Shown: one piece after another, positions 4,336 to 19,530 of the stretch
Layout of the letters: every line of letters begins with the position of its first letter
Numbering within the stretch: position 1 is the stretch's first letter
Origin: Escherichia phage PBECO4
Sequence record: KC295538
Reading direction: 5' to 3' (one strand)
Length of the DNA: 64,000 bases
Notes under the pieces: generated by a model
The model's input: the letters and a program-made list of their open reading frames with translations, nothing else
The model's database searches: none
What the model was told of the DNA's origin: nothing
Program-made: the position numbers and the translations under genes

Positions 4336-4618
4336 AGTTCGGTGACCTCTAAAGTTGAGTTAATGTAACTAACATATAAAATATGAATGAAATATAATAT
4401 AGACTATATATTATCAGAATTATATAAAAAGTCAAGCCCCTATCACTCCTTTTTTCGAAGTCGCTAAGGTTACCCGCCCTTTAGCCCCCTACGCATTTTG
4501 CCATAGTCCAATCCCTTTTATTTCAAAAAAGTCAAGGGATTACCTATGCATTTTTTTAACGCATAATTTTAAAAACGCCTTGACTTTTTTCTGAATCAGT
4601 ACTAGATCCCTTTACGCA
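4336..4618. promoter_or_regulatory. AT-rich intergenic region with three TTGACT boxes, two in inverted orientation; probable promoter region for leftward operon
   Basis: aaaaagtcaag at ~4427 and ~4524, inverted copy ccttgactttttt at ~4587; no ORF. Confidence 0.35.
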
Positions 4619-4828
4619 TTAATCCTTCGTTACGCTAACGATTATCTGTGTATCCCCGTAGTCCTGCCATACTTCCACGCCATCGGTCGCCCTGGTTAGT
4701 CGTGCTGTCATCTGCTTAATGGTCTTAGGCTTTAGTGGAACCTGTTGCAGTACTGTACGCATAGCATCATTGACGTTATCATGTACGCCTGCAATAGTAC
4801 CTAGAACGCTGTATACTGTATAGAACAT
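4619..4828 (-). CDS. hypothetical protein
   Basis: Track ORF. Confidence 0.5.
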   Translation of the reverse strand: MFYTVYSVLGTIAGVHDNVNDAMRTVLQQVPLKPKTIKQMTARLTRATDGVEVWQDYGDTQIIVSVTKD

Positions 4829-4896
4829 ATGTATGTACTCCTGATATAGTTAAGGCCGCTACAAGGCGGCCTATGATGTTTGGTGATGTGTAACGC

Positions 4897-5298
4897 TTAC
4901 AGTCCTAAGATAGTGCGTGCTTCGTTACGTTCCGTACACAGCTGCATGATGTGAGCAAGTAAGTCCTTGCTAATGTATCCGTTGTCCATAGCTTCACGGA
5001 TAGATACATCATAAGCACCGAACCCCGTGCGAACGATACGCACATCATTCAGGTTAGTATTATAGATACCGCCGAGATCAACGGCTTCGAATACTACATC
5101 AACAGAATATTCATTGTTGCCATCGTGGAAGTTTTCCAGTGCAATAGTATTGGATACCGCCCAACGTTTGCAGTTTCCAATGATGCGGCACTGTTCCGGT
5201 TGGATAGTGCCATTACTTACAGCGTACTCCAGTGCATCTTTACCGAAAGTCCGAGCCAGTACTAAAACGTCAGCGAAGGAATTGATTGAGAAGGTCAT
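4897..5298 (-). CDS. hypothetical protein
   Basis: Track ORF 4897..5331 trimmed to ATG 5298 (MTFSINSF..) with AAGGAG 8 nt upstream; promoter+hairpin upstream. Confidence 0.65.
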   Translation of the reverse strand: MTFSINSFADVLVLARTFGKDALEYAVSNGTIQPEQCRIIGNCKRWAVSNTIALENFHDGNNEYSVDVVFEAVDLGGIYNTNLNDVRIVRTGFGAYDVSIREAMDNGYISKDLLAHIMQLCTERNEARTILGL

Positions 5299-5387
5299 GA
5301 TAAAACTCCTTAATTTAGGAGGGAGAACCATTTCCCCCTCTCTATGTAAAACATTATACTTGATTCTAAGTACTATGCAAGTACTTT
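5299..5387 (-). promoter_or_regulatory. sigma70-like promoter (TTGCAT-N16-TATAAT) + 5' UTR hairpin
   Basis: Minus strand reads ttgcatagtacttagaatcaagtataat then hairpin gagggggaaatggttctccctc then SD. Confidence 0.6.
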
Positions 5388-5720
5388 TTACATTTTAATT
5401 CCTGGATTCAGGTAACGGTGAGATCCATATTCTGGATAGGTTTCGTTCCAGTACTGTAAATCGATAGTACCTTTCGCGTTAATCTTGTCTACCAGCTTAT
5501 TCATCTTAGCGTATACTACGTCAGCATCGATGCGTTTAAAGCCAGTAGCTTTAGTGAAGTAGTAGTGATTTGCTTCACTATCATTAAGGATATACCGAGC
5601 ACCGTTTGCAGTCTGTGCGATAATGATTGAGTATTCTACTTCCCGATCCAGACCGTCGATGAATACAGATGAAACATTGGTACGGATGAAAGCTTTAACG
5701 ATAGCGATTGAAGTACTCAT
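5388..5720 (-). CDS. hypothetical protein
   Basis: Track ORF; own promoter upstream. Confidence 0.6.
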   Translation of the reverse strand: MSTSIAIVKAFIRTNVSSVFIDGLDREVEYSIIIAQTANGARYILNDSEANHYYFTKATGFKRIDADVVYAKMNKLVDKINAKGTIDLQYWNETYPEYGSHRYLNPGIKM

Positions 5721-5923
5721 TTTGAATCTCCTAACTTTGTGGGCCGTCGCACCATTGCCGCCCTACGAGATACATTATTGCAGTACTGATATACTTTGTC
5801 AATACTTTTTTATTAATAGTTTTAGTTCCACCAGCAGATAGTTACTCACCGTTATTAACTATATATTTTGGATACACTTATGCACCCTGTGGGCTGATTT
5901 GTTTCTATGCGTATATAATAGCA

Positions 5924-5951
5924 AAGGGACTGACCGGAGTCAATCCCTTTT
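5924..5951. terminator. TTGACT-containing hairpin flanked by A-run and T-run (bidirectional terminator-like, copy 1 of 12)
   Basis: aaagggactgaccggagtcaatcccttttt; same element recurs 11 more times. Confidence 0.5.
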
Positions 5952-5964
5952 TTATTCTTTTTTG

Positions 5965-6165
5965 TTAGATGATTCTCCAATCATCAACGATCATGGTAAG
6001 ATACCGAACCAGTGATTCGAGTGATTCGTGTTCTCGATAGTCTGCCGCACCGCCAGCGGTACAAGTACAGCCGATTAAGCCGTTTTGCAATTCCTTAATC
6101 TGTACATCGATAAGGTTGGCTTTAGCTTCTTTCAGTACTTCAACCAGGGCGAGAGCGATAGACAT
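5965..6165 (-). CDS. hypothetical protein
   Basis: Track ORF; promoter+hairpin at 6166..6255. Confidence 0.6.
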   Translation of the reverse strand: MSIALALVEVLKEAKANLIDVQIKELQNGLIGCTCTAGGAADYREHESLESLVRYLTMIVDDWRII

Positions 6166-6255
6166 AATGTTTTACTCCAAACTATTGGCGGGAGAACTAT
6201 TCCCCCGCTCTATGTAAAACATTATACATTACTGGTTAGTACTGTCAAATAGTTT
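6166..6255 (-). promoter_or_regulatory. sigma70-like promoter + 5' UTR hairpin
   Basis: tgtcaa/attata on + strand (TTGACA/TATAAT on minus), hairpin gcgggagaactattcccccgc. Confidence 0.6.
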
Positions 6256-6513
6256 TTATGAAATATCTTCGATGTAGTCGGCCCATTTCATTTTTTCAGT
6301 ACTGTCAATGGCTACCGGATTATTTGGATCAAACCATTCACCATTACCGCAATACATACCAACGGCTACGGTTTTATAGCCATCCTGGGCCGTACACCAC
6401 GACATTGCACGATAGATATGGCCTTTAACTGGTTGCAGTACTGGTAACGTTTTATGGTCTTCTACGTAGGCCATAGCTTGAGGATTTACCCGATATTGTG
6501 TGAATTGTTCCAT
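6256..6513 (-). CDS. hypothetical protein
   Basis: Track ORF; TTGACA-N17-TGTAAT upstream (6514..6589). Confidence 0.6.
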   Translation of the reverse strand: MEQFTQYRVNPQAMAYVEDHKTLPVLQPVKGHIYRAMSWCTAQDGYKTVAVGMYCGNGEWFDPNNPVAIDSTEKMKWADYIEDIS

Positions 6514-6589
6514 TATGTTTCCCCTTGTAGTTAGTAAAGTTATTACATCAGTACTATCAAGCTATGTCAATAGTACTGAAATAAAACTT

Positions 6590-6814
6590 TTAGATTAGAT
6601 TATTGAGGCCGTCAATGGTAGACTCACTTTCTTCTTTCTCCCATTGTCGGTAGTACTTCCATGCTTCATGATAGGTGGCGATTAGTTCATCTTTTTGATC
6701 CTGGTTACATGCCAGTACTGAATCACGGTGAGCGGTGTTATAGATAGAATCGAATGATTTCTTCTCTTCTGCCAGGTTAGCTACTTCCCGCATCAGTTCA
6801 TCAAAGTTAGCCAT
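6590..6814 (-). CDS. hypothetical protein
   Basis: Track ORF; own promoter+hairpin. Confidence 0.6.
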   Translation of the reverse strand: MANFDELMREVANLAEEKKSFDSIYNTAHRDSVLACNQDQKDELIATYHEAWKYYRQWEKEESESTIDGLNNLI

Positions 6815-6881
6815 TTTATTACTCCTTTTAGTGGGGGAGGATATCTCCCCCTATGCAAAACATTATACTTTGTTTTAGTTA
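6815..6881 (-). promoter_or_regulatory. sigma70-like promoter + 5' UTR hairpin
   Basis: hairpin gggggaggatatctccccc; atgcaaaacattatac motif. Confidence 0.55.
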
Positions 6882-7145
6882 TTATGCAAGTACTTTTTTC
6901 ATATAAACATTAAATTCTACACCGCCGTAACCTTCCACGATGATATGTTTTGCGTTATCACGTTTGCACATAGTGAAACCATCGTTTACGTGTTTTGCAT
7001 TTTCCAGGGCGACATCACCGATAGCGGCACATACAGCACTAATAACGATATTCCGCAAAGTACTGGTATCATTAGCGGTCATAGTAGTTTGCATGATTAC
7101 GTTGTCGTATACGTGTGCATTGATAGTGATTTCGATAGTGTTCAT
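6882..7145 (-). CDS. hypothetical protein
   Basis: Track ORF. Confidence 0.6.
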   Translation of the reverse strand: MNTIEITINAHVYDNVIMQTTMTANDTSTLRNIVISAVCAAIGDVALENAKHVNDGFTMCKRDNAKHIIVEGYGGVEFNVYMKKVLA

Positions 7146-7231
7146 GGTGTATCTCCTGGACTGGCGGGAGAACTATTCCCCCGCTCTATGTAAAACATTA
7201 TACGTTAATCTAACTACAATGCAAGTACTTT
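7146..7231 (-). promoter_or_regulatory. sigma70-like promoter + 5' UTR hairpin
   Basis: hairpin gcgggagaactattcccccgc; atgtaaaacattatac. Confidence 0.55.
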
Positions 7232-7423
7232 TTAAATTTTATTTCCGATATAGTCTGGCCTGTTCTTTTCGGTCATACGCTTAAGCATTTTTTGCATATG
7301 GCTTATTGCTTGTAGTGTATCCTCTTCCAGGGATGAATCGAGATAATCAGGATCATTCTTCACCTTGCAATGATTATGATAGCGTAGTACTGCCAGTACT
7401 TTTTTAACTTCTTCAACTGTCAT
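7232..7423 (-). CDS. hypothetical protein
   Basis: Track ORF; overlaps upstream gene by 4 nt. Confidence 0.55.
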   Translation of the reverse strand: MTVEEVKKVLAVLRYHNHCKVKNDPDYLDSSLEEDTLQAISHMQKMLKRMTEKNRPDYIGNKI

Positions 7424-7692
7424 AATAAGTACTCCACTTCGTTAGCTTTCAGGTTAGTATCAATCATCAATGGTTTTTTGTAGTTCACAAAACGATTAGT
7501 TTTTTCGATAGCGAATCCCATATAATCCAGCTTACTAACAGTACATTCATTCTTAAAAACTTCTTTCGCTGCATCGATGGCTGATTGCATGGATAACCGA
7601 CCATCTAAATTAATGTTTCCAAATGATCCACCAGCAGAAGTAGGATTACCGTTCATATCTTTAATGATCATAGTAGCGGAGTAGCTGGACAT
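7420..7692 (-). CDS. hypothetical protein
   Basis: Track ORF; promoter+hairpin at 7693..7776. Confidence 0.6.
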   Translation of the reverse strand: MSSYSATMIIKDMNGNPTSAGGSFGNINLDGRLSMQSAIDAAKEVFKNECTVSKLDYMGFAIEKTNRFVNYKKPLMIDTNLKANEVEYLL

Positions 7693-7776
7693 AATTTTGT
7701 TTCCTTTTAGTATCGGGGAGAACTATTCTCCCCTTGATGTAAACTATTATACAGTACTAATATACTTTGTCAATAC
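7693..7776 (-). promoter_or_regulatory. consensus sigma70-like promoter + 5' UTR hairpin
   Basis: Minus strand TTGACA (7773..7768), 16-nt spacer ending AGTACTG, TATAAT (7751..7746); hairpin ggggagaa-cta-ttctcccc 7714..7733. Confidence 0.65.
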
Positions 7777-7998
7777 TTAATTACGTTTAAAATGATATGT
7801 GCCTTTATCATCCTGTACGCCCCATACTGATTTACCATCAACACCAGTGAAGCCGGATTGTAATTCAATATGGAAACCATTATTATCAACTACAAAAACT
7901 TTTTTATTTTCATCCCGATAACATTGATATTCTGAATCAACATTAAAGGCCGCATCATTCAGAAGATTGGAAGCGTAAATGCAAGTCATTGTAGTCAT
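7777..7998 (-). CDS. hypothetical protein
   Basis: Track ORF 7777..8073 trimmed to ATG 7998 (MTTMTCIY..) with AAGGA SD; extension is translated promoter/hairpin. Confidence 0.6.
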   Translation of the reverse strand: MTTMTCIYASNLLNDAAFNVDSEYQCYRDENKKVFVVDNNGFHIELQSGFTGVDGKSVWGVQDDKGTYHFKRN

Positions 7999-8179
7999 GA
8001 TTTTATTCCTTATTGCCAGGGAGAACCGTTTCCCCCTCTCGATATAAAACATTATACTTGATTCTAAGTACAATGCAAGTACTTTTTTAAAATAGTTTTC
8101 AGTACTGAATACTTATATAATAGATACACTTCCGCACCCTATGGGTCAGTGAGTTATCTCTCAATGAATATATAATAGC

Positions 8180-8210
8180 AAAGGGACTGACCGGAGTCAA
8201 TCCCTTTTTT
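8180..8210. terminator. TTGACT-containing hairpin element (copy 2)
   Basis: aagggactgaccggagtcaatccctttttt. Confidence 0.5.
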
Positions 8211-8218
8211 AATCTTTT

Positions 8219-8803
8219 TTATCGTGTTATAGTTACGGCTTTTACATCACGCTTTTTATAGTACTGATTCCAGATATTGCGGGTTAAACCGTAATCAAGT
8301 ACTTTAATAAGGCCGTTGCGATCCTGGCCGATATTCTGTTTTCTGATATCTCTTATCGTTAGTGTTGACAGTGTATCATCAACGTGTTGTAGTGCATCAG
8401 CAAAGCGGTGCTGGCGTTCAATAGCATTACGTTTAATATTGTACTTTAATTCGTTGCACGCGTTAACGTGCTTCACACTGCCTTTACTTGCAGTACTCAA
8501 CCGATCCATAACAATAAACATATTATCAGGATCGCTTAAATGCATATGCACTTTAGCGAAGAACTGTTTCAACTGAGGGCGGTCATAGTCTAAAAAATTC
8601 CATACCCTACATTCTGTTTCATTTTGTTCTACACCCGCATCACAATTCGCGACCTTGATCACTAACCGATCATTTAAAGCGAAAACTATACGGGAAGAAC
8701 CCGCACCGATGATCTCCAGACCAGCTAACCGACAAGCTGAAAGGATCTCTTTGTTGGTTTCCATTGCTGACAGGGTACGGATGAATTTAGTATAATTACG
8801 CAT
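8219..8803 (-). CDS. protein kinase-like protein (Hanks-type fold)
   Basis: IGAGSSRIVF glycine loop, VIKV lysine, IRDIRKQNIG catalytic-loop-like, LDYG (DFG-like); start trimmed to ATG 8803 with AAGGAG. Confidence 0.55.
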   Translation of the reverse strand: MRNYTKFIRTLSAMETNKEILSACRLAGLEIIGAGSSRIVFALNDRLVIKVANCDAGVEQNETECRVWNFLDYDRPQLKQFFAKVHMHLSDPDNMFIVMDRLSTASKGSVKHVNACNELKYNIKRNAIERQHRFADALQHVDDTLSTLTIRDIRKQNIGQDRNGLIKVLDYGLTRNIWNQYYKKRDVKAVTITR

Positions 8804-8834
8804 TGCATGTTCTCCTTGAGTTAATGAAACTATC

Positions 8835-9134
8835 TTACAGTACTTTACTATCAATGGCAACTACTTTTTTTACACTAACCGCGTGAATCACTTCCTTAGT
8901 GTTTTTAGTACTGAATACTTTCGCCGTGCCTTGTTCTACTGCAATACGATAACGACCGTTAACATCAACCATATTAATAAAGTCCGGTGTACTAAACCGA
9001 GTAGTTTTACATTTCAGTACTGTTAACAGTTCCACCAGCGATGTGGTTTCTTTGATACGTTTTTCTAAAGTAATCATTTTGTTTTCCCCGTGTTGGTATG
9101 TACATATAGTACTAAAACATTTGAGTACTGTCAA
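8835..9134 (-). CDS. hypothetical protein
   Basis: Track ORF. Confidence 0.55.
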   Translation of the reverse strand: MTVLKCFSTICTYQHGENKMITLEKRIKETTSLVELLTVLKCKTTRFSTPDFINMVDVNGRYRIAVEQGTAKVFSTKNTKEVIHAVSVKKVVAIDSKVL

Positions 9135-9385
9135 CGTGATATTAGTTTTATTTTCTTATTATATTGTTGATGTTCATAAAGGTTTATCTTTCCTGTGTTC
9201 TCTATTACTATTCTGTTGTTAGTGTCTACATCGATTACACGCAGTTTTCCGTTGCTTAACTTCCTTGGTAATAGGTTACCATTAATAAACTCATTAGCAA
9301 GCTGTACGGCCTTTGTGATGATTCTCTGAGGTGCTTTATAGTGTACCCGCAAGATATTATCTTTAGATAGTTGTACCTTAATCAT
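9131..9385 (-). CDS. hypothetical protein
   Basis: Track ORF; 4-nt overlap with downstream gene. Confidence 0.55.
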   Translation of the reverse strand: MIKVQLSKDNILRVHYKAPQRIITKAVQLANEFINGNLLPRKLSNGKLRVIDVDTNNRIVIENTGKINLYEHQQYNKKIKLISR

Positions 9386-9400
9386 TTTAGTTTATCCTAT

Positions 9401-9425
9401 AAAAAAGGCGGGAACTGATCCCGCC
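9401..9425 (-). terminator. rho-independent terminator (minus strand)
   Basis: ggcgggaactgatcccgcc hairpin preceded on + by AAAAAA (U-run on minus), just 3' of gene 9448..9843. Confidence 0.6.
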
Positions 9426-9447
9426 GTGTTGTTAGTACTGCAAGTTA

Positions 9448-9843
9448 TTAGATAACCTGTCGGCGTTTACTATATACTGTTACACGATTACCCTTACGGT
9501 CGTGTCGGATCTCTTTCTGGTTGCGTACCAGTTCACTTGGACGCTTCAGGTTTGCCAGGTGATCCGCGTGAGTCCAAGCGGTATGGTTTGTCTGTACTTT
9601 GATATCAGAATCAGCGATAAACTCATCTTGTGCATCAAGTATTGACGCCAGTAAATCCGCTCGTTTTAGTTCTGCTGCTGTTAGTACTGGCTCCGGTGAA
9701 TTCACAATATCAGAGATCTCTTTGAACTGTACGGCCCAGCGTTGACCTTTCGGTGCATCTTTGCCCATGTCTTTAAATGTTTCGCCTTCCTCGCGTGCAA
9801 CAATACGGGCAGCTTCACGGGTAGCGTAGAATTTAGTAATCAT
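9448..9843 (-). CDS. hypothetical protein, paralog of 22341..22607
   Basis: Shared FATRE.ARI.AR..G.TFKDMG and DRKGNRVTVY segments. Confidence 0.6.
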   Translation of the reverse strand: MITKFYATREAARIVAREEGETFKDMGKDAPKGQRWAVQFKEISDIVNSPEPVLTAAELKRADLLASILDAQDEFIADSDIKVQTNHTAWTHADHLANLKRPSELVRNQKEIRHDRKGNRVTVYSKRRQVI

Positions 9844-9938
9844 GGTATACATCCTATTAGTTGAGTTAGTACTACAAGTTAGAGTCTATTATAAAGTACT
9901 ATCTGGGCAATGTCAAATAGTACTTTAAATGGATTCTA

Positions 9939-10262
9939 TTACATGTCTTTCTTACGTTTTACATCGTGGTAGCGAACTGTTATTTCTTTGTTGATCTCTT
10001 CCTCGATGCGGTGAATAACTGTTTCTTTCGGGTTGAAACCTATAACGGTTTCTTTAATGATCTCCAAGCCCGTGTATTCTCCTTGTGTACCGTAACCGTA
10101 AGTAAAGGTTTCATGTCCCAGGTCTTCCCAGCGGTCGCCAATTAACGCGGACACGTAGCAAGAGTGGTAAGTGTTACCGTTCCGATCAGTCCAGCGATTA
10201 ACTTTAATGTCAAAGGAGGTTACAATTTTCAGTTCTACTTTCTGGGTAAGGATCATAGCCAT
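9939..10262 (-). CDS. hypothetical protein, paralog of 16709..17032
   Basis: Shared RWTD..GNTYHSC.VS, FTYGY, C-terminal DVKRKKD. Confidence 0.6.
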   Translation of the reverse strand: MAMILTQKVELKIVTSFDIKVNRWTDRNGNTYHSCYVSALIGDRWEDLGHETFTYGYGTQGEYTGLEIIKETVIGFNPKETVIHRIEEEINKEITVRYHDVKRKKDM

Positions 10263-10352
10263 TTTTATTTCTCTCTCTCTTTGTTAGGAGGGGAACCGTT
10301 TCCCCTCGCTTGATGTAAACTATTATACAGTACTAAGATACTTTGTCAATAC
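10263..10352 (-). promoter_or_regulatory. sigma70-like promoter + 5' UTR hairpin
   Basis: tgtcaa/attata on +; hairpin gaggggaaccgtttcccctc. Confidence 0.6.
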
Positions 10353-10535
10353 TTATTTTTTGGAAAGTTTACGCATTAATTCTACGCTTTCTTGTGAACG
10401 TTTTGCTACCTGGCAATCTGTATGGGTAGTAAACATTTTTGTATAGTCTGACGGTTTGCCACCGAACCGAGCGGCACGCTCACGGGCACTTGGAACTAAT
10501 ACGATTTCTTTCTTACAGATAGTGCACTTAGCCAT
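10353..10535 (-). CDS. small Cys-containing protein (possible zinc ribbon)
   Basis: CTICKK...HTDC in 60 aa; own promoter+hairpin. Confidence 0.5.
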   Translation of the reverse strand: MAKCTICKKEIVLVPSARERAARFGGKPSDYTKMFTTHTDCQVAKRSQESVELMRKLSKK

Positions 10536-10620
10536 TTTTATTTCTCTCTCTTTGTTAGGAGGGGAACCATTCCCCCCTTGATGTAAACTATTATACAGTA
10601 CTAAGATACTTTGTCAATAC
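10536..10620 (-). promoter_or_regulatory. sigma70-like promoter + 5' UTR hairpin
   Basis: Near-identical copy of unit 10263..10352. Confidence 0.6.
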
Positions 10621-10896
10621 TTAATTATTGTAAATGCAGTGAATAGTGATAAAGTTTTTACGACCGTAAACCTGCAAATCAATATCAATGTAGTGCTTAT
10701 CAAGTACATCCTCGACGCTTAACGCGGTGTCGTGAATATCTTCGTAGAATTGAGGATCTACAATCTTGCTTAAGTCATCCGGCGTTAACTTATCGTTAAG
10801 CCATTGAACCGCCTGGATATCTGCTTCACGTTTCCAGTCTTCCAGGTTAGTAGTCAGTACTTGCTCGATTTCGTTAGCTGTCAGTAGAATCCGCAT
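10621..10896 (-). CDS. hypothetical protein
   Basis: Track ORF. Confidence 0.55.
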   Translation of the reverse strand: MRILLTANEIEQVLTTNLEDWKREADIQAVQWLNDKLTPDDLSKIVDPQFYEDIHDTALSVEDVLDKHYIDIDLQVYGRKNFITIHCIYNN

Positions 10897-11093
10897 TTTT
10901 ATGTTTCCTTATCAGTAGTTGATGTAAGTATTATACTCGTTTACTTTCTATTGTCAATCTTTTTTTATCAGGGGAGTTTTTCGTATGTCTTACTCCTGGA
11001 CTACTTAACGGGGTTACTTGTTTTGTTCCCCGTCCTGATGTAAAACATTATACTTGATTCTAAGTACAATGCAAGTACTTTTTAAAAATAGTT

Positions 11094-11258
11094 TTACTTA
11101 CTCATATTAACAGGCTTGAACGGTGGCAATGTAAGATCATGCGGGGTTAAACTATCATGCTTTGCCCACATACCGGAATCCCTACGGAATAATACCTTAT
11201 TGTTTTTTATACGATAAAAGTTACCATTATCAGTGTTTTTGTACCATATCATTTTCAT
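11094..11258 (-). CDS. hypothetical small protein (54 aa)
   Basis: Own translation MKMIWYKNTDNGNF..; GGAG SD; promoter motif upstream. Confidence 0.4.
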   Translation of the reverse strand: MKMIWYKNTDNGNFYRIKNNKVLFRRDSGMWAKHDSLTPHDLTLPPFKPVNMSK

Positions 11259-11398
11259 TTACTCCTGGTTATGTCGTTATTAAACATTATACGGGGTTAT
11301 AGATAGTTTTCAAGTATATTTCAGTACTAGCCACCAGCATATAATAGATACATTTATGCACCCTATGGGCTGATTTTTTTCTATGCGTATATAATAGC

Positions 11399-11430
11399 AA
11401 AGGGACTGACCGGAGTCAATCCCTTTTTTA
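11399..11430. terminator. TTGACT-containing hairpin element (copy 3)
   Basis: agggactgaccggagtcaatccctttttt. Confidence 0.5.
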
Positions 11431-11437
11431 ATTCTTT

Positions 11438-11587
11438 TTAAACTTCTTTCGGGTTGCGATATGTGATAGCGTTCGGGTACATTTGTTTAATGTTATTCCA
11501 TGCCTGGTTAACATTGTAACCACTTGAGCGAATCAGTTGGTTACTACCGACACCTTGAAACACTACTTCGAATAAGAATTCTTTCAT
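11438..11587 (-). CDS. hypothetical small protein (49 aa)
   Basis: Own translation MKEFLFEVVFQG..; ATGA overlap with upstream ORF. Confidence 0.4.
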   Translation of the reverse strand: MKEFLFEVVFQGVGSNQLIRSSGYNVNQAWNNIKQMYPNAITYRNPKEV

Positions 11588-11757
11588 GCTTTCACCTCGC
11601 TATCTGCTTTACCTTTACGCCAGGACATTACTAATTGTTCGCGTTGCCATAAATCGAGTGATACAAAAAGTTTTGCGGTATCACTTTTAGGATACTCGCC
11701 AGTAGTACCTAACCGATAAAACAGATCTTTCAGTACTGATAATTCTACTTGAATCAT
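11584..11757 (-). CDS. hypothetical small protein (57 aa)
   Basis: Own translation MIQVELSVLKDLFYRLG..; translationally coupled. Confidence 0.4.
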   Translation of the reverse strand: MIQVELSVLKDLFYRLGTTGEYPKSDTAKLFVSLDLWQREQLVMSWRKGKADSEVKA

Positions 11758-11863
11758 TTTATTACTCCTGATTGATTTAATACTTCTACTATTGCATGAA
11801 TGATCATAAGTACAGCTAAAACAATAATCATCGGATTCATTTGCATAAGCTGTACTCCTTCTA

Positions 11864-12076
11864 TTAATCTTTCAGCCAATGATCTTGAATGAATTTTTCA
11901 CAGAATCCCTGTTTCATGGATTCCAACAGGCGTTCGCGGTGAGCGTTTGCGAATTGCTCAGTACTATGCGTTACGCCAGGCTGATAACGTGATACCCCAT
12001 CCGGTCCGATGTATTGTACATCCCACGGTTTTTCGTTAGTATCAGACCATTTACGAACGATTAGTTGACCTTGCAT
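11864..12076 (-). CDS. hypothetical protein
   Basis: Track ORF; promoter+hairpin 12077..12159. Confidence 0.6.
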   Translation of the reverse strand: MQGQLIVRKWSDTNEKPWDVQYIGPDGVSRYQPGVTHSTEQFANAHRERLLESMKQGFCEKFIQDHWLKD

Positions 12077-12159
12077 TTTTCTTTCCTCTCAGTGGGGAGA
12101 ATCATTTCTCCCCTTCATGTAACTTATTATACAGTACTAGATTATCTTGTCAATAGTTT
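12077..12159 (-). promoter_or_regulatory. sigma70-like promoter + 5' UTR hairpin
   Basis: ggggagaatcatttctcccc hairpin; tgtcaa/attata. Confidence 0.6.
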
Positions 12160-12483
12160 TTATTCACCTTGTTTGAATTTAGTTTTCTCCATTGATTCCA
12201 TGATTGCAACCAATACGCCGTGGATCTCGCTTAACGCGGAATCACTGAAAGCATTAATGAATAGTCGATCATTCTCGCGAATATTTTTAATGTACTTTTC
12301 AGCAGTAGTTGCGAATTCATTCAACGGTAGATCAAATGCTTTATCCCATGATGGATGGCGTAATTGTAACAGTACTGGATTATCACGATCACCAGGGGAA
12401 AACGTACCAGTGATGAAACATACGCCCGGAATACTTTCGAACTGGCAACGGACTTCCTTTGTGATAGTAGTATGAATGTACAT
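12160..12483 (-). CDS. hypothetical protein
   Basis: Track ORF. Confidence 0.55.
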   Translation of the reverse strand: MYIHTTITKEVRCQFESIPGVCFITGTFSPGDRDNPVLLQLRHPSWDKAFDLPLNEFATTAEKYIKNIRENDRLFINAFSDSALSEIHGVLVAIMESMEKTKFKQGE

Positions 12484-12510
12484 TTATTGTTATCCTCTAT
12501 TAAATTAATA

Positions 12511-12705
12511 TTACAGTTTATGAATCAATTCTTTATCTAAGCGATAGCGTACATTATTAATAGTAACGGCATTGTTTTTAATGCTACGCTGTACAGGTCC
12601 ACCAGCAATAACAAATGTTGCTTTATTACCCCGAACAATGATAGCACTTCCAGGATTACCGAAATCATCTTGTACTAAAATACTTGATAAGTTTTCCATT
12701 TTCAT
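12511..12705 (-). CDS. hypothetical protein
   Basis: Track ORF; promoter+hairpin upstream. Confidence 0.55.
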   Translation of the reverse strand: MKMENLSSILVQDDFGNPGSAIIVRGNKATFVIAGGPVQRSIKNNAVTINNVRYRLDKELIHKL

Positions 12706-12780
12706 TTCCTCTTAGTAGGGGAAGATGTTTCCCCTTGATGTAAGTACTATAACACTACTGGATAGTACTGTCAATACTTT
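12706..12780 (-). promoter_or_regulatory. promoter + 5' UTR hairpin
   Basis: hairpin aggggaagatgtttcccct; tgtcaa -35. Confidence 0.5.
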
Positions 12781-13038
12781 TTATCTCATAGATCTATGCC
12801 AACAATTACGCGGGGGACGTTTAAAAGTACTATCATGATCCTCCTGGCAAGTTATGCAGTACTTACATCCCTTAACGGCCTGGCGTCGTTTCTCAGGGAT
12901 TATATCGCCGCAGTCGAGGCAATGTATCAGTGATTCTATTTGTGCGTTAATTTGCTTTCTAGCGTGGTTAACGGCGGCCTGAATCACTGCGTTAATCTCG
13001 TCTTGTTCGGCCCCATCTTTCGCGAATCCTACAGCCAT
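12781..13038 (-). CDS. TraR/DksA-family C4 zinc finger protein
   Basis: C-x2-C-G-x2-IP-x2-RR-x5-C-x2-C spacing (HCLDCGDIIPEKRRQAVKGCKYCITCQ) matches the DksA/TraR zinc finger. Confidence 0.6.
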   Translation of the reverse strand: MAVGFAKDGAEQDEINAVIQAAVNHARKQINAQIESLIHCLDCGDIIPEKRRQAVKGCKYCITCQEDHDSTFKRPPRNCWHRSMR

Positions 13039-13369
13039 TATTTTAACCTCATTATAAAAATACTATAGTACTGTAATGCGACAATAATATTACTTGTTCT
13101 TACTTTTTCCAATCCACATGATACCACATATTCATCCCCATATGTGCGGAACGATACACCATGAAAATTTTTATACACTTGCACTACTAATCATAACCTT
13201 TCGTCTAACCAACTGCATAGAATTATACTACTTTACGCAAATTGATCAAGTATTGATCAGATCATTTTTTGATCAATATTATACAGTTACATTTGTGCAC
13301 CCTATGGGTTAGTGACGTTCTCGTCTTGATGTAAGTATTATGCCAGTACTTGATGATATTGTCAATAGT

Positions 13370-13567
13370 TTATTTTAATTTTTTTCTGTCATTGATTAAT
13401 GCTTTCAGTACTATACTAATGATTTGCAATGATTCATCAATGACTATAAAATTATTCTCTTTCATTAGATGATAGTTACCATTGATTGTATATTCTAAGG
13501 AGTACTGTTTACGTTTAATTTTTGATAATGTTTCTATTTGTTTTTGTACTGATTTCATGCTAATCAT
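13370..13567 (-). CDS. hypothetical protein
   Basis: Track ORF. Confidence 0.5.
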   Translation of the reverse strand: MISMKSVQKQIETLSKIKRKQYSLEYTINGNYHLMKENNFIVIDESLQIISIVLKALINDRKKLK

Positions 13568-13672
13568 TGTTAAACGTCCTGTAACGCATTCTAACGAGAT
13601 AAACGGTTTAGTACTGGCATTGTATAGGGTAATGAATTAAAGCCCACCAGCGTTAACCAGTGGGCTATAATC

Positions 13673-13816
13673 TTACATCTTGCGGATAATCTTAACAGTA
13701 TCTTTCACCGATTTACCGTCTTGCTGGCATTGCTCGATCATTGCGTATTGTTCTGCTGTAAGATCCTCGCCAGTTTTTGCCAGTACTGCGTCGATGAATG
13801 AATCCAGTGCGATCAT
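13673..13816 (-). CDS. hypothetical small protein (47 aa)
   Basis: Own translation MIALDSFIDAVLAKTGEDL..; promoter-like region upstream. Confidence 0.4.
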   Translation of the reverse strand: MIALDSFIDAVLAKTGEDLTAEQYAMIEQCQQDGKSVKDTVKIIRKM

Positions 13817-13915
13817 TTTGTTTCTCTCTTAGGTTAAGTTAACTACTGTTTATAAAACTTATTATACAGTACTATCAAACGTTGTCAATATCTTTAATAG
13901 TACTGGTAATATATT

Positions 13916-14095
13916 TTAGCGGTAATCGTCGTATGCTTTATTCACCTGGCGAATGTAACTTTCAAAGGCTTCGTCTACCGTTTCATACTCCCGAACATAA
14001 TCACCATAGGAAACTACATACATACCTTTTTGATCTTCAAACGACATGATGATAGAATCCAGGCCGATGATTTCAGTTTTTGCGATGATAGCCAT
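13916..14095 (-). CDS. hypothetical protein
   Basis: Track ORF trimmed to ATG 14095 (MAIIAKTE..). Confidence 0.55.
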   Translation of the reverse strand: MAIIAKTEIIGLDSIIMSFEDQKGMYVVSYGDYVREYETVDEAFESYIRQVNKAYDDYR

Positions 14096-14178
14096 TTTTA
14101 ATTCCTTAGTAGTGTAGTTGATAAAAGTTATTATGCCAGTACTATCAATCAGTGTCAATAGTACTGTGATAATATTTT

Positions 14179-14391
14179 TTAGTTAATAATAGTCAGTGTA
14201 AAATTGTAATCCCCTGCCTGGTATAGTACTTTATCGCCGAACGTTCCAACACGTTTCATATTGCAATAGATACCCATAACACTTTTTACATCTTTGATAT
14301 TCCGAACGCCAGTAATATCCTTGTTTAAATGATCGTGATCAGAAAATAAAACTTGTTTTGCATTTTTCAGTACAGTGCAGATATTAGCCAT
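14179..14391 (-). CDS. hypothetical protein
   Basis: Track ORF; promoter+hairpin 14392..14485. Confidence 0.6.
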   Translation of the reverse strand: MANICTVLKNAKQVLFSDHDHLNKDITGVRNIKDVKSVMGIYCNMKRVGTFGDKVLYQAGDYNFTLTIIN

Positions 14392-14485
14392 TTTGTTTTC
14401 TCTCTGTTAGTGGGGAGAATCATTTCTCCCCTTCATGTAACTTATTATACAGTACTATAATCTATTGTCAAACTATTTTTTTATA
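14392..14485 (-). promoter_or_regulatory. sigma70-like promoter + 5' UTR hairpin
   Basis: ggggagaatcatttctcccc hairpin identical to that at 12077..12159. Confidence 0.6.
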
Positions 14486-14827
14486 TTATTCGAAATCTTC
14501 TGGACCGGACTGATAATCATCTTCACCGTATGCACTTTCTAACTTCTCGCCAGTGTGATCATCAGTTAGTGAATCATCCTCATAATTCACGTCTACGCCT
14601 ACAATGTAAAACTGGCTATCGTCTGGATCATTGAAATTAATTTTCTGAATGTTTACAATAACTGTATTGATGCCCAGGACACAGCCATCAGCCGTTACAA
14701 AGTACTGATAGTTTTCACAACCGCCTGAATTGAAACCGTAATTGATTTCGGCCCGACCATCATTTAAACGCAGTGCCTGGGCGATGATTTCGTTTTCAAA
14801 GTTAGATTGAGCAATTGAGATAGTCAT
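14486..14827 (-). CDS. hypothetical acidic protein
   Basis: Track ORF; D/E-rich C-terminus. Confidence 0.6.
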   Translation of the reverse strand: MTISIAQSNFENEIIAQALRLNDGRAEINYGFNSGGCENYQYFVTADGCVLGINTVIVNIQKINFNDPDDSQFYIVGVDVNYEDDSLTDDHTGEKLESAYGEDDYQSGPEDFE

Positions 14828-15019
14828 GATTCGTTTCCTTATTACTAGGGGAAACCGTTTCCCCTTTCGATGTAAAACATTATACGCTTATTGAGATAGT
14901 TTGCAAGTACTTTTTATCAAATACTTTAAAATAGTTTTCAGTACTCAAACATTATACAATAGATACACTCCTGCACCCTGTGGGCTAGTGAGCTATCTCT
15001 CAATGATTATATAATAACA

Positions 15020-15049
15020 AAATGGCTGACCGAAGTCAACCACTTTTTT
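15020..15049. terminator. TTGACT-containing hairpin element (copy 4, variant)
   Basis: aatggctgaccgaagtcaaccacttttttc. Confidence 0.45.
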
Positions 15050-15052
15050 CAT

Positions 15053-15187
15053 TTATTTTTTAGCTTTAAGTACTGCGGCCTTTCGTGTCATGCCTTGCTT
15101 GATGTATTCCTGTACTTTCGCTTTACGTGCTTTAGCTTTATCTGCTTTAGTTTTAGGAGTACTGTAAACTATACCGTTAGGATTCAT
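15053..15187 (-). CDS. hypothetical small basic protein (44 aa)
   Basis: Own translation MNPNGIVYSTPKTKADKAKARKAK.. Confidence 0.35.
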   Translation of the reverse strand: MNPNGIVYSTPKTKADKAKARKAKVQEYIKQGMTRKAAVLKAKK

Positions 15188-15273
15188 TTAAATCACCATA
15201 AAGAATAGATAGGTTACTAACAACGCCGCGATCAATGCACCGACCAGGGCCGAACTGTAATAAGCTAAGGATC

Positions 15274-15426
15274 TCATTTTTTAGCCTGAAAATAATGTTT
15301 AATTTGTGCGGCGGTCAGTGCACAATTACGCAGGAAGTTTTCTGTATAACTGCGGCGAGTATTAAAAGAGAATTGACCTTTACCGTTACCGATAGTTACA
15401 TCCATCCGAGCGTTGTATTGTTTCAT
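15274..15426 (-). CDS. hypothetical small protein
   Basis: Track ORF 15274..15456 trimmed to MKQYNARMDV.. Confidence 0.5.
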   Translation of the reverse strand: MKQYNARMDVTIGNGKGQFSFNTRRSYTENFLRNCALTAAQIKHYFQAKK

Positions 15427-15507
15427 TTTGTATCTCCTGTTATCGGGGAGAATCATTTCTCCCCTTCATGTAAAACATTATACAGTACTAAAAACTAATT
15501 GCAAGTA
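15427..15507 (-). promoter_or_regulatory. sigma70-like promoter (TTGCAA -35) + 5' UTR hairpin
   Basis: ggggagaatcatttctcccc; ttgcaagtatt on +. Confidence 0.6.
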
Positions 15508-15750
15508 TTATTTTAAACTTTGTGCGACTAATTTCGCACGGTCAATCATATACTGCCATTTTTGGATCTCTTCTGGCAGAAAACGATATTCACCAATAAC
15601 AATAGTGATACACTTTTCAGCTTGGTCAATGTATGTAGTATCAATCTCGACTTGAACGGGTACACGTTCGCCGTATTCAGTCCCTGGGATAATGCAATCA
15701 TTATCATAAGTTACAGTAGTAGTAGTGTCTTTGATTAAAATTGTTTCCAT
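15508..15750 (-). CDS. hypothetical protein
   Basis: Track ORF. Confidence 0.6.
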   Translation of the reverse strand: METILIKDTTTTVTYDNDCIIPGTEYGERVPVQVEIDTTYIDQAEKCITIVIGEYRFLPEEIQKWQYMIDRAKLVAQSLK

Positions 15751-15819
15751 TATACTTTCCTCGTTAGGTGTAAGGGGAACGTTTTCCCCTTCATGTAAAA
15801 CATTATACAGTACTGAAAA
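15751..15819 (-). promoter_or_regulatory. sigma70-like promoter + 5' UTR hairpin
   Basis: aggggaacgttttcccct hairpin. Confidence 0.55.
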
Positions 15820-16029
15820 CTAATTGCAAGTACTTTCCGAAAGTAAATGCTCATACGCTGCATTAACTACATTTTCAATAACCGACTGTACAGAAAGATC
15901 CCCCACGTCCTGGCTATAGTAGAAATTGCTTACAGTGGTGTCATCGTATGCAAATACTTTACCAGGTACTGCATCAATCACATACATATTAACCTTTAAG
16001 ATGTCGATCTTATCCTGTACAGTAAGCAT
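15820..16029 (-). CDS. hypothetical protein
   Basis: Track ORF. Confidence 0.55.
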   Translation of the reverse strand: MLTVQDKIDILKVNMYVIDAVPGKVFAYDDTTVSNFYYSQDVGDLSVQSVIENVVNAAYEHLLSESTCN

Positions 16030-16034
16030 ATTAA

Positions 16035-16307
16035 TTAACCTTTTAAGTACTGGCTTAAGTAGTCTTTTTGATCTTCGGTGATTGCAGTCATCTTCCCTAG
16101 TACTGGATTGATGATATAATCCCCTGTAACGTCCTGTAACGCATTCTCAGGCGGTTTAACGGCTGGGGTAGCCATAGCCATTGCCTGGACTTGTTCGACG
16201 CTGTAACGCTCATAAAGGCGGCATTCTTCCGGTGTTAACATAGCATCAGTACGCTTCATCGGTTTAATGATGCTTTCGATCTCATTCAGTACTTGATTAA
16301 CGTTCAT
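16035..16307 (-). CDS. hypothetical protein
   Basis: Track ORF. Confidence 0.55.
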   Translation of the reverse strand: MNVNQVLNEIESIIKPMKRTDAMLTPEECRLYERYSVEQVQAMAMATPAVKPPENALQDVTGDYIINPVLGKMTAITEDQKDYLSQYLKG

Positions 16308-16358
16308 GGTATAATCCCCAATATAAGCGGCCTAAATCGACCGCTAACGATGTTTTGA

Positions 16359-16628
16359 TTAATAGGTGTAAGGTTGACGCTCAAACAATGATTGTACGCT
16401 GTACGCCCCGCTAATGGGCTTCGCTGGCAAATCAATTTTATATTGTTCACGCTTAAAGATAATAAAACGGCAATTGTTTTTAACATCAAAATTGATTGAA
16501 CGTTCCAGGAGTTTTCCATCGTGCACAAATACAAGATAACCGCTTGGTACTTGTTTTGTAGAACTGGTTGCAACCATAGACCGACGAACATGTGTACCTG
16601 CATCGATTAAAGTACTGATATTTTTCAT
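16359..16628 (-). CDS. hypothetical protein
   Basis: Track ORF; preferred over overlapping 16304..16603 frame. Confidence 0.5.
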   Translation of the reverse strand: MKNISTLIDAGTHVRRSMVATSSTKQVPSGYLVFVHDGKLLERSINFDVKNNCRFIIFKREQYKIDLPAKPISGAYSVQSLFERQPYTY

Positions 16629-16708
16629 TTTACTATCCTCTTAAGTTGATTTAATTTCTTTCCCCTATGCAGACACTGTATCAAAGTATCTGCATAAAGT
16701 AAAGCTAA

Positions 16709-17032
16709 TTAAAGATCTTTTTTACGTTTTACATCCTGTACAGTACAATGCAACGGGATAGACAAATCATTACACAAACGAGTAAGGGAGGTTTCAACAG
16801 TATCAAGCCCGTCTACTGATTCCTTTAAGAGATCAAACGCCGTTTGTTGATATGCATCTTCATAGCCATAAGTAAATGATTCAACCGCCAGATCATTCAA
16901 ACCGTTATCCAGTTCAACGCTTACATGACAAGAATGATAAGTATTGCCATATGAATCAGTCCAACGTTTACCGTCAACATTGATTGCATGGATTGCAGCC
17001 AGGGAAACGGTATTGATGATAGTTTTAGCCAT
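16709..17032 (-). CDS. hypothetical protein, paralog of 9939..10262
   Basis: Shared RWTD.YGNTYHSCHVS, FTYGY, DVKRKKDL. Confidence 0.6.
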   Translation of the reverse strand: MAKTIINTVSLAAIHAINVDGKRWTDSYGNTYHSCHVSVELDNGLNDLAVESFTYGYEDAYQQTAFDLLKESVDGLDTVETSLTRLCNDLSIPLHCTVQDVKRKKDL

Positions 17033-17123
17033 TTTAGTATTCCTTAAATTAATATGTGTCGTCTTGATAAAATCTATTATGCCAGTACTATCAAACTATG
17101 TCAATAGTACTGTGATAATATTT

Positions 17124-17336
17124 TTACTTACTTTCTTTCGCTGCTTTATATGTTGCCACTGCCATAACCACATCAGCACGAACAAAGTTTTTAACCGTGT
17201 CACTGTAATAATTGATCGCATCATCTATATCTGCGAACGTCCGATACATACCGCACCAAGATACTTTATAACCTTCTTTCACTTCTGCCAGTTTAACGAT
17301 AGTCTTGTTAACTTTGATTTTAGTAATGATAGCCAT
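17124..17336 (-). CDS. hypothetical protein
   Basis: Track ORF trimmed to ATG 17336 (MAIITKIKV..). Confidence 0.55.
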   Translation of the reverse strand: MAIITKIKVNKTIVKLAEVKEGYKVSWCGMYRTFADIDDAINYYSDTVKNFVRADVVMAVATYKAAKESK

Positions 17337-17423
17337 TTTAGTTTCCTCATTATCAGGGAGAACCATTTCTCCCCTTGATGTAATGTATTATACTTTATTC
17401 GATTTACTTTGCAAGTACTTTTT
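17337..17423 (-). promoter_or_regulatory. sigma70-like promoter + 5' UTR hairpin
   Basis: gggagaaccatttctcccc hairpin. Confidence 0.55.
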
Positions 17424-17915: not shown

Positions 17916-17936
17916 AGTGATTCAGTACTTTAATTG

Positions 17937-18650: not shown

Positions 18651-18667
18651 AGTGATTCAGTACTATA

Positions 18668-19524: not shown

Positions 19525-19530
19525 TATGTA

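What the first reader, a model, noticed from the sequence alone, without database searches (positions are those of the whole stretch)
8219..8803. Small Hanks-type protein kinase-like gene among the early-type genes
A ~194-aa protein carries a glycine loop (IGAGSSRIVF), a VIKV lysine motif, a catalytic-loop-like IRDIRKQNIG and a DFG-like LDYG. Phage kinases are known in a few systems (for example T7 gp0.7) for host takeover, and the position among promoter-per-gene early genes fits that role.
Basis: partly seen in the sequence, partly recalled or inferred. Interest (0 to 1): 0.6.

Follow-up and report, generated by a model that had tools for sequence, protein, structure and literature searches.

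The report
Minimal kinase-fold early gene, jumbo phage
This is a real 194-residue gene of a giant E. coli/Salmonella phage that folds like a stripped-down protein kinase with the core catalytic residues intact; databases already label its orthologues "putative protein kinase", but nobody has tested what it phosphorylates.

Summary
Window 8219-8803 (minus strand) is a 194-aa gene under purifying selection, with a strong ribosome-binding site and a terminator hairpin. All four motifs are present.

It is not a full Hanks-type kinase:
- It ends 24 residues after the DYG motif, so it has no activation segment and no helices F-I.
- It scores below Pfam's threshold.
- It shows no detectable sequence relationship to T7 gp0.7. 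The true gp0.7 homologue is another gene, at 52332-53006.

The window comes from an Asteriusvirus jumbo phage. The gene lies in the region equivalent to the ~21-kb direct terminal repeat, among about 50 small co-directional genes served by consensus sigma-70 promoters.

Most likely it is an early host-directed phosphotransferase, probably a protein kinase. Its substrate is unknown.

The kinase call is not new. Several GenBank records, a UniProt entry and one paper already name orthologues as protein kinases. What is new here is the wider family picture (PHROG 4301, absent from Pfam): tandem arrays, copies inside a tape-measure protein, and unusual invariant residues. Interest is moderate.

The parts
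8219..8803 (-). CDS of the 194-aa minimal protein-kinase-like protein (member of PHROG 4301). Model layout: N-terminal helices 4-26; beta1-3 30-52 (G-loop G33-R38, K50); alphaC 55-73 (Q60, N61, E64); beta5 96-100; helices 107-120 and 130-145; catalytic loop D152-N157; D170-Y-G172; last helix 175-182.
8812..8817 (-). Shine-Dalgarno sequence AAGGAG, 8 nt upstream of the ATG at 8803
   Evidence: read from the sequence
8832..8860 (-). Weak promoter-like site directly upstream (TTGCCA-17-TAAGAT, 9/12) with a TG before the -10. It looks like a degenerate copy of the AGTACTGTATAAT module found in the perfect promoters of this region. Function not shown.
9106..9134 (-). Promoter-like site TTGACA-17-TACTAT (10/12) upstream of the 80-aa ORF that precedes the kinase-like gene; probable start of a two-gene transcript
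8835..9077 (-). Upstream 80-aa ORF, probably co-transcribed. No family match. Annotated as a hypothetical protein in phages G17 and Sharanji.
8180..8207 (-). Terminator-like hairpin (12-bp stem, -19.5 kcal/mol, z = -4.5) 12 nt after the stop codon. Phage G17 annotates a terminator at the same place. The hairpin overlaps the -35 of the next promoter-like site.
4448..25442 (-). Stretch equivalent to the 21,525-bp direct terminal repeat of Escherichia phage vB_Ec-M-J. The physical left end of that genome maps to window 25442. It holds about 50 small minus-strand genes transcribed inward from the terminus, and the kinase-like gene lies ~16.6 kb from the end.

Best explanation
The gene encodes a catalytically competent, minimal protein-kinase-like (PKL) phosphotransferase of an Asteriusvirus jumbo phage.

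It keeps the N-lobe (Gly-rich loop, beta3 Lys50, alphaC Glu64), the hinge, helices D and E, the catalytic loop (Asp152 ... Asn157) and the Mg-binding Asp170-Tyr-Gly172. It then ends after one short helix. It therefore has no activation segment and none of the C-lobe's substrate-docking helices. T7 gp0.7 is truncated in the same way, as are the effector kinases OspG and SteC.

The gene sits in the region equivalent to the ~21-kb direct terminal repeat, so a packaged genome would carry two copies. It lies in an array of small genes behind consensus sigma-70 promoters. Host RNA polymerase should therefore transcribe it as soon as the DNA enters the cell.

The inferred mechanism is that it binds Mg-ATP between the lobes and transfers the gamma-phosphate to host (or phage) targets early in infection. 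The targets are most probably proteins on Ser/Thr, and the purpose would be host takeover or counter-defence.

Shown here: the gene is real and under selection; the fold; conservation of the catalytic residues; the genomic position. Inferred: kinase activity, a protein substrate, early timing and biological role.
For: Fold:
- AF2 model pLDDT 94.1, pTM 0.90.
- Foldseek against PDB finds kinases at E~1e-4.

Sequence:
- All 60 listed hits of the profile search against PDB are protein kinases, and D152, N157 and D170 align with the HRD-Asp, Asn and DFG-Asp of MKK4 and PKC.
- K50 aligns with the essential K256 of SteC (PMC13395416).
- The PADLOC Ser/Thr kinase family PD-T4-6 scores 1.2e-4.
- The depositors of Klebsiella phage Muenster report HHpred 99.9% to 6J5T_M for the homologue.

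Conservation:
- S36, R38, K50, G57, Q60, D152, G159, D170 and G172 are invariant in 121 sequences, and E64 is present in 120 of 121.
- N157 is invariant in the 12 closest homologues, down to ~40% identity.
- dN/dS is 0.04-0.14.

Context:
- The gene lies in the equivalent of the terminal repeat. The repeat was confirmed by restriction digests in fEgEco12 (PMC13070987).
- Records that include both repeats carry two copies of the gene.
- There are 13 perfect sigma-70 promoters against 0.15 expected.
- Relatives sit in the same kind of small-gene array.

Analogy:
- T7-kinase-family models align over ~183 of 194 columns (TMq ~0.55).
- T7 kinase is a proven early, promiscuous anti-defence kinase (PMC13645617; PMC12345140).
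- Family members occur fused to a second kinase-like domain, which gives a weak hit to Pfam Kinase-PolyVal (P0183), and embedded in a tape-measure protein (P0081). Both fit a host-directed role at entry.
Against: - No biochemical or expression data exist for this gene or for any family member.
- It scores below Pfam's Pkinase threshold (18.1 against 31.7 bits).
- TM-scores to solved kinases are modest at 0.38-0.48.
- The protein lacks every element that canonical kinases use to bind peptide substrates.
- The Lys of HRDxK is not conserved. In the wider family the catalytic-loop Asn is mostly replaced by Ser.
- Invariant R38, Q60 and N61 are not canonical kinase features and remain unexplained.
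- The gene's own promoter-like site is weak (9/12).
- I could not read model coordinates, so the K50-E64 salt bridge and the active-site geometry were not checked.
Confidence: 0.55

Rival explanations
1. It is an active PKL-fold phosphotransferase, but its substrate is not a protein. It could be a small molecule, a nucleotide or second messenger, an envelope or LPS component, or a nucleic acid. Aminoglycoside phosphotransferases, Kdo kinase and the archaeal tRNA kinase ArkI work in this way.
For: - There is no activation segment, P+1 loop or helices F-I.
- The invariant R38 in the phosphate-binding loop and the Q60-N61 pair are not protein-kinase features and could form a binding site for a different substrate.
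Against: - All 60 listed hits of each sequence and profile search against PDB are protein kinases, and the Pfam and PADLOC matches point the same way. None is an APH, choline-kinase or Kdo-kinase family.
- Proven protein kinases (T7 gp0.7, OspG, SteC) are truncated in the same way.
- A fusion to a second kinase-like domain with a weak Kinase-PolyVal hit points to the same functional class.
Confidence: 0.22
2. It is a pseudokinase or nucleotide-binding scaffold. It would bind ATP or a host partner and act by sequestration or allostery, without transferring phosphate.
For: - It is very small and lacks the regulatory and substrate-binding parts of a kinase.
- The Lys of HRDxK is missing and the His and Arg of HRD are not conserved.
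- In most of the wider family the catalytic-loop Asn is replaced.
- The minimal kinase OspG needs a partner to be active (PMC13395416).
Against: The residues that pseudokinases typically lose are the ones retained. K50, D152 and D170 are invariant in 121 sequences spanning ~20-95% identity, and E64 is kept in 120 of them. N157 is invariant within this clade.
Confidence: 0.1
3. The kinase resemblance is a chance coincidence of short motifs in an unrelated small phage protein.
For: The single-sequence scores are weak: Pfam E=0.0018, below threshold, and PDB phmmer E~0.01.
Against: - The motifs occur in the right order and spacing.
- A confident model built without templates has the kinase fold.
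- The motif residues are exactly those that are invariant across the family.
- Independent annotators reached the same call by HHpred at 99.9%.
Confidence: 0.02

Closest known systems
T7 gp0.7 protein kinase (T7K) and its homologues such as JSS1_004
   Same: Both are phage-encoded, in an early-gene position, and transcribed by host RNA polymerase. Both have a minimal kinase domain that stops ~20-27 residues after the Mg-binding Asp. Viral-structure search aligns T7K-family models over ~183 of 194 columns (TMq 0.53-0.59). T7K is shown to phosphorylate much of the host proteome and to disarm defence systems.
   Different: There is no detectable sequence relationship (BLASTP E=5; hhalign probability 0.3%). 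This gene has DYG rather than the T7K-specific DPV motif and has no shut-off domain. The phage carries a genuine T7K homologue elsewhere, at window 52332-53006, so this is a second, independent kinase-like gene.
Eukaryote-like (Hanks-type) Ser/Thr protein kinases, Pfam PF00069
   Same: It has a Gly-rich loop, beta3 Lys, alphaC Glu, catalytic-loop Asp and Asn, and a DFG-like DYG. The best sequence matches are MKK4/6/7, PKC and bacterial PknB/Stk1.
   Different: It is 194 aa against ~260 aa. Subdomains VIII-XI (APE, helix F Asp, helices G-I) are absent. The third Gly of the loop is an invariant Arg. The His, Arg and Lys of HRDxK are not conserved. It scores below Pfam's gathering score.
Minimal bacterial effector kinases SteC and OspG/NleH
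   Same: They are very small kinase domains with a depleted C-lobe (OspG is 196 aa, from my own knowledge). A 121-sequence profile finds the SteC N-lobe as its best PDB hit (E=0.0055), with GSGSYGTVY...VVKIPVNERGI aligned to GSSRIVF...VIKVANCDAGV and K50 placed on the essential K256.
PHROG 4301 and already annotated orthologues in Rak2-like jumbo phages
   Same: This is direct membership (E=3e-42). Orthologues at 35-99% identity occur in Asteriusvirus, Alcyoneusvirus (RaK2, K64-1, Muenster) and in jumbo phages of Erwinia, Xanthomonas, Salmonella and Yersinia. Several are already named '(putative) protein kinase', and the Sharanji paper lists WNN14351.1 as 'another protein kinase, function unknown'.
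   Different: PHROG itself lists the family as 'unknown function', Pfam has no model for it, and no member has been studied experimentally.

Membership tests
Hanks-type eukaryote-like protein kinase (PF00069) | Score at or above Pfam's gathering threshold for Pkinase | tested here: not met
   18.1 bits against a cut-off of 31.7, E=0.0018. Distant family members score even lower.
Hanks-type eukaryote-like protein kinase (PF00069) | Subdomains I-III: Gly-rich loop GxGxxG, beta3 Lys, alphaC Glu | tested here: met
   G33-A-G35-S-S-R38-I-V40 (the third Gly is replaced by an invariant Arg). K50 is invariant and E64 is present in 120/121 sequences. K50 aligns with PKC K371 and SteC K256.
Hanks-type eukaryote-like protein kinase (PF00069) | Subdomains VIb and VII: catalytic loop HRDxKxxN and the DFG motif | tested here: met
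   D152 is invariant. N157 is invariant in the closest 12 sequences but mostly Ser in the wider family. D170 and G172 are invariant. All align with the corresponding residues of MKK4 and PKC. The His, Arg and Lys of the motif are not conserved.
Hanks-type eukaryote-like protein kinase (PF00069) | Subdomains VIII-XI: activation segment with APE, helix F Asp, helices G-I with the conserved Arg | tested here: not met
   The protein ends 24 residues after D170. The model shows only one short helix (175-182) after DYG.
Protein-kinase-like (PKL) fold superfamily | Two-lobe fold: five-stranded N-lobe sheet plus helix C, hinge, helical core carrying the catalytic loop and the Mg-binding loop | tested here: met
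T7 gp0.7 (T7K) kinase family | Detectable sequence homology to the T7K kinase domain (PHROG 15752 / 2828) | tested here: not met
   BLASTP E=5 and hhalign probability 0.3%. The PHROG scan lists only 4301 as significant. The window's other kinase gene does meet this criterion (1.2e-98).
T7 gp0.7 (T7K) kinase family | DPV motif in place of DFG | tested here: not met
   The sequence has D170-Y-G172, which is the canonical DFG type. The T7K motif is described in PMC13645617.
PHROG 4301 (phage family of unknown function) | Significant full-length match to the family profile | tested here: met
   E=3.2e-42, residues 19-188.
Active protein kinase (functional class) | ATP-dependent phosphorylation of protein substrates | not testable with these tools
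   This needs biochemistry or phosphoproteomics. No published data were found for any family member.

The most novel reading that the evidence does not exclude
PHROG 4301 may be a large, phage-restricted, so far uncurated family of minimal kinases. A profile search finds 1,740 representative clusters at E<=1e-3, and Pfam has no model.

The family has its own signature: G-S-S-R in the phosphate loop, G-x-x-Q-N-x-x-E leading into helix C, and G-D-x6-G. Its chemistry or targets may differ from those of T7 kinase.

Under this reading the family is a dedicated entry-stage effector. It would be supplied in double dose from the terminal repeat, as tandem arrays of up to four copies in one polypeptide, or ejected as part of the tape-measure protein. 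Its target would be a specific host component, or a non-protein substrate such as a defence-system signalling nucleotide, rather than the proteome at large.
Probability: 0.2. Interest if true: 0.65.

Novelty: new member of a known kind. Interest (0 to 1): 0.38.

Why it matters
Phage kinases have recently gained attention as broad counter-defence tools: T7 kinase disarms retrons, DarTG, Dnd and CRISPR components by mass phosphorylation. Asteriusvirus and Rak2-like jumbo phages carry a diverged T7K homologue and also this second, sequence-unrelated minimal kinase, placed in the equivalent of the terminal repeat, a region rich in consensus sigma-70 promoters.

If the protein is active, three things follow:
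- Jumbo phages would deploy two distinct kinases.
- It would be one of the smallest kinase folds available for asking how a kinase without an activation segment selects substrates.
- Hundreds of 'hypothetical' phage proteins would gain an annotation.

If it turns out to have a non-protein substrate, it could reveal a new takeover or anti-defence chemistry. As it stands, this is a sound but already anticipated annotation with no functional data.

Tried and rejected
1. **T7 gp0.7 membership.** Rejected. There is no sequence similarity, and the real homologue is at 52332-53006.
2. **First AF2 run with 12 sequences.** It gave a poor C-terminal half (pLDDT ~50) and was not used for fold search. I replaced it with a 121-sequence run.
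3. **Pfam scans of distant and multidomain family members.** No family passed threshold. The only extra leads were a weak Kinase-PolyVal hit in the second domain of P0183 and a sub-threshold YggL hit.
4. **NCBIfam.** Nothing useful.
5. **Paralogues in the window.** HMMs built from A1-A3 find only this gene.
6. **Ser/Thr/Tyr depletion of terminal-repeat proteins,** the signature reported for T7K-encoding phages. The values are 16.7% in the repeat, against 18.8% for other small ORFs and 23.4% for large ORFs. The direction fits, but crude ORF calls and differences in protein class confound it, so I treat it as inconclusive.
7. **Bacterial genome scan.** Alignments A3 and A2 were too divergent for the tool. 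A1 patterns found only 3 loci, all in metagenome-assembled genomes. This suggests the family is rare outside phages, but the sensitivity was low.
8. **Supplementary table of the T7K paper,** to identify its phage G17 hit. It is not held in the library.
9. **Active-site geometry.** Model coordinates are not exposed, so I could not check it.

Full report
**What is there**

The window is part of an Asteriusvirus jumbo myovirus. It shares 94-98% nucleotide identity with Salmonella phage SD-1_S14 and with Escherichia phages G17, Sharanji, UB and SP27, whose genomes are ~350 kb.

The finding corresponds to a minus-strand ORF with ATG at 8803 and its stop at 8219-8221, encoding 194 aa. The longer TTG-initiated ORF in the mechanical list is an artefact. 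The ATG is preceded by AAGGAG at an 8-nt spacing, the upstream 80-aa gene stops at 8835, and phages G17, Sharanji and vB_Ec-M-J all annotate the same 585-nt CDS.

A 12-bp hairpin follows the stop codon by 12 nt (-19.5 kcal/mol, z = -4.5). G17 annotates a terminator at that position. Among orthologues dN/dS is 0.04-0.14.

**Is it kinase-like?**

Single-sequence evidence is weak but consistent:
- Pfam Pkinase gives E=0.0018, which is below the gathering score.
- All 60 listed PDB phmmer hits are protein kinases.
- PADLOC's Ser/Thr kinase family PD-T4-6 gives 1.2e-4.
- PHROGs places the protein firmly in family 4301, annotated 'unknown function' (3e-42).

A profile of 12 homologues raises the best PDB hit to 3e-4 (MKK4). 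It aligns D152, N157 and D170 with the HRD-Asp, the catalytic-loop Asn and the DFG-Asp.

An exhaustive profile search found 1,740 representative clusters at E<=1e-3. A second indexed search gave 308 proteins. None had a precomputed Pfam kinase domain, and many sit on contigs of 180-470 kb.

With 121 of these as alignment, AlphaFold2 produced a confident model (pLDDT 94.1, pTM 0.90). The first run with 12 sequences had been poor in the C-terminal half.

- Foldseek gave the same families at E~1e-4, with modest TM-scores of 0.38-0.48.

The fold is therefore protein-kinase-like, but divergent.

**Catalytic residues**

Over 121 sequences (~20-95% identity to the query) the invariant positions are S36, R38, K50, G57, Q60, D152, G159, D170 and G172. 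G35, S37, N61 and E64 are nearly invariant.

These map onto the kinase core as follows:
- the phosphate-binding loop (G33-A-G35-S-S-R38-I-V40)
- the beta3 lysine (K50)
- the helix C glutamate (E64)
- the catalytic aspartate (D152)
- the Mg-binding D-x-G (D170, G172)

K50 aligns with the essential K256 of the Salmonella effector kinase SteC, whose N-lobe is the best PDB hit of the 121-sequence profile (E=0.0055; PMC13395416).

N157 is invariant in the Asteriusvirus/RaK2-type clade but is mostly Ser in the wider family.

Three invariant residues, R38, Q60 and N61, have no counterpart in canonical kinases, and I cannot explain them.

**What it is not**

The protein ends 24 residues after D170. 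The model shows one short helix after DYG and nothing equivalent to the activation segment, APE motif or helices F-I. It therefore fails the strict definition of a Hanks-type kinase and Pfam's threshold. It is a minimal PKL protein of the kind represented by T7 gp0.7, OspG and SteC.

It is not a T7 gp0.7 homologue by sequence, and it has DYG where T7K has DPV.

The window contains the genuine T7K homologue at 52332-53006. This is 224 aa, matches PHROG 15752 at 1.2e-98, is 27% identical to T7 gp0.7 (E=5e-9), carries an ...ITDP... motif, and has no shut-off domain. It probably corresponds to the 'jumbophage' T7K homologues of G17 and Munch noted in PMC13645617 and to Sharanji WNN14432.1. The two kinase-like genes show no significant similarity to each other.

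In the viral structure library, T7K-family models still align with this model over ~183 of 194 columns (TMq 0.53-0.59). The closest matches are unannotated or kinase-annotated proteins of RaK2, PBECO4, CBB and RP12.

**Genomic setting**

The 21,525-bp direct terminal repeat annotated in Escherichia phage vB_Ec-M-J maps colinearly onto window 25442 down to ~4448. The kinase-like gene is number 42 of 53 small co-directional genes in that repeat and lies ~16.6 kb from the physical end.

Several lines support the repeat and the gene's place in it:
- In fEgEco12 (95% identical protein at 16,161-16,742) the 20,993-bp repeats were predicted by PhageTerm and confirmed by restriction digests.
- The Alcyoneusvirus homologue in phage Muenster lies inside its 20,030-bp terminal repeat.
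- Records that include both repeats carry the gene twice.

The window has 13 perfect TTGACA-N16-18-TATAAT sites against 0.15 expected. All are on the minus strand, and 11 lie in the repeat-equivalent stretch.

The gene itself is served by a 10/12 site upstream of the preceding 80-aa ORF and by a degenerate 9/12 site with a TG extension directly upstream.

The CBB paper proposed that such RpoD-promoter regions of short ORFs, which extend into the terminal repeat, are the early genes of Rak2-like phages (PMC5259590). More distant homologues sit in the same kind of small-gene arrays and on jumbo-phage-sized contigs.

Early expression is thus well motivated but not measured.

**Mechanism**

The best-supported reading is an active minimal phosphotransferase made at the start of infection from a gene present in two copies per packaged genome. 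It would bind Mg-ATP through the G-loop, K50-E64, N157 and D170, and use D152 as catalytic base. I put about 0.55 on the full statement with protein substrates, and about 0.8 on it being a catalytically active PKL enzyme of any substrate class.

Arguments for protein substrates:
- Every significant sequence-level hit is to a protein kinase.
- Proven protein kinases share this truncated architecture.
- One family member is fused to a second kinase-like domain that gives a weak Kinase-PolyVal hit.

Arguments for caution:
- Structure search does not separate protein kinases from APH or SAICAR-synthase-type enzymes.
- All peptide-docking elements are missing.
- The family-specific invariant residues are unexplained.

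A pseudokinase role is unlikely, because the residues that pseudokinases lose are invariant here.

**Novelty**

The kinase call itself is already public:
- K64-1 RefSeq: 'protein kinase'.
- Muenster and fENko-Kae01: 'putative protein kinase', with HHpred 99.9% to 6J5T_M.
- ph0011, Turkey5 and fEgEco12 also carry kinase names.
- UniProt L7TKF0 of PBECO4: 'Protein kinase domain-containing protein'.
- The Sharanji paper lists the orthologue WNN14351.1 as 'another protein kinase, function unknown'.

Most records still say 'hypothetical protein', PHROGs says 'unknown function', and I found no experimental work.

What this analysis adds:
- the family-wide conservation pattern
- the demonstration that it is a second kinase, distinct from the T7K homologue
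- the mapping to the terminal repeat
- unusual architectures elsewhere in the family: four tandem copies in one 923-aa protein, and copies embedded in a 3,248-aa tape-measure protein

I rate it as a new member of a known kind and of moderate interest.

Noticed in passing
window 52332-53006 (minus strand): A second kinase gene of 224 aa. It is a genuine T7 gp0.7 (T7K)-type kinase without the shut-off domain: PHROG 15752 at E=1.2e-98, 27% identity to T7 gp0.7 at E=5e-9, and an ITDP motif at the T7K DPV position. The phage therefore encodes two kinase-like proteins that are unrelated in sequence.
   Followed up: partly
window ~4448-25442: This stretch is colinear with the 21.5-kb direct terminal repeat of phage vB_Ec-M-J, and that genome's physical end maps to window 25442. 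About 1.7 kb next to the terminus (23768-25442) has no sizeable ORF. Beyond 25442 the window continues into other small minus-strand genes, as expected if the source record is a permuted or collapsed assembly.
   Followed up: partly
window 6221-25077, plus 50277-50304 and 60867-60894 (minus strand): There are thirteen perfect sigma-70 consensus promoters (TTGACA-N16-17-TATAAT) against 0.15 expected. Most share the extended module AGTACTGTATAAT. Repeated intergenic cassettes combine a terminator hairpin with the next promoter, for example at 8172-8207.
   Followed up: partly
proteins P0021, P0026, P0027, P0028 (metagenomic relatives): Single polypeptides of 640-920 aa carry three to four tandem copies of this kinase-like domain. 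PHROG 4301 matches four stretches in P0021. I do not know of a described counterpart among phage kinases.
   Followed up: partly
protein P0081 (3,248 aa): Its N-terminus is a tail tape-measure protein (PHROG 4211, E=1e-49). At least two copies of the kinase-like domain follow it. This suggests that some phages deliver the domain with the ejected tape-measure protein.
   Followed up: partly
protein P0183 (433 aa): A fusion of a PHROG 4301 domain (residues ~44-247) with a second, different minimal kinase-like domain at the C-terminus. The second domain gives a weak hit to Pfam PF18762 Kinase-PolyVal and has motifs GAGVWG...VLKIT...DMHQENFG...IFDIT.
   Followed up: no
window 29841-42100 (plus strand): A run of ten consecutive plus-strand ORFs of ~300-430 aa (nine of them 358-433 aa) lies just past the small-gene region. 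Their similar size and tandem arrangement suggest a paralogous gene family. I did not examine them.
   Followed up: no
L008 (Klebsiella phage Muenster) 563-811; L004 4351-4599: RelE/YafQ/ParE-like toxin genes lie a few genes upstream of the kinase-like gene in Muenster and in a metagenomic relative. JGI names one longer family member (P0181) as RelE-like, although Pfam finds nothing in it. A possible functional link was not tested.
   Followed up: no
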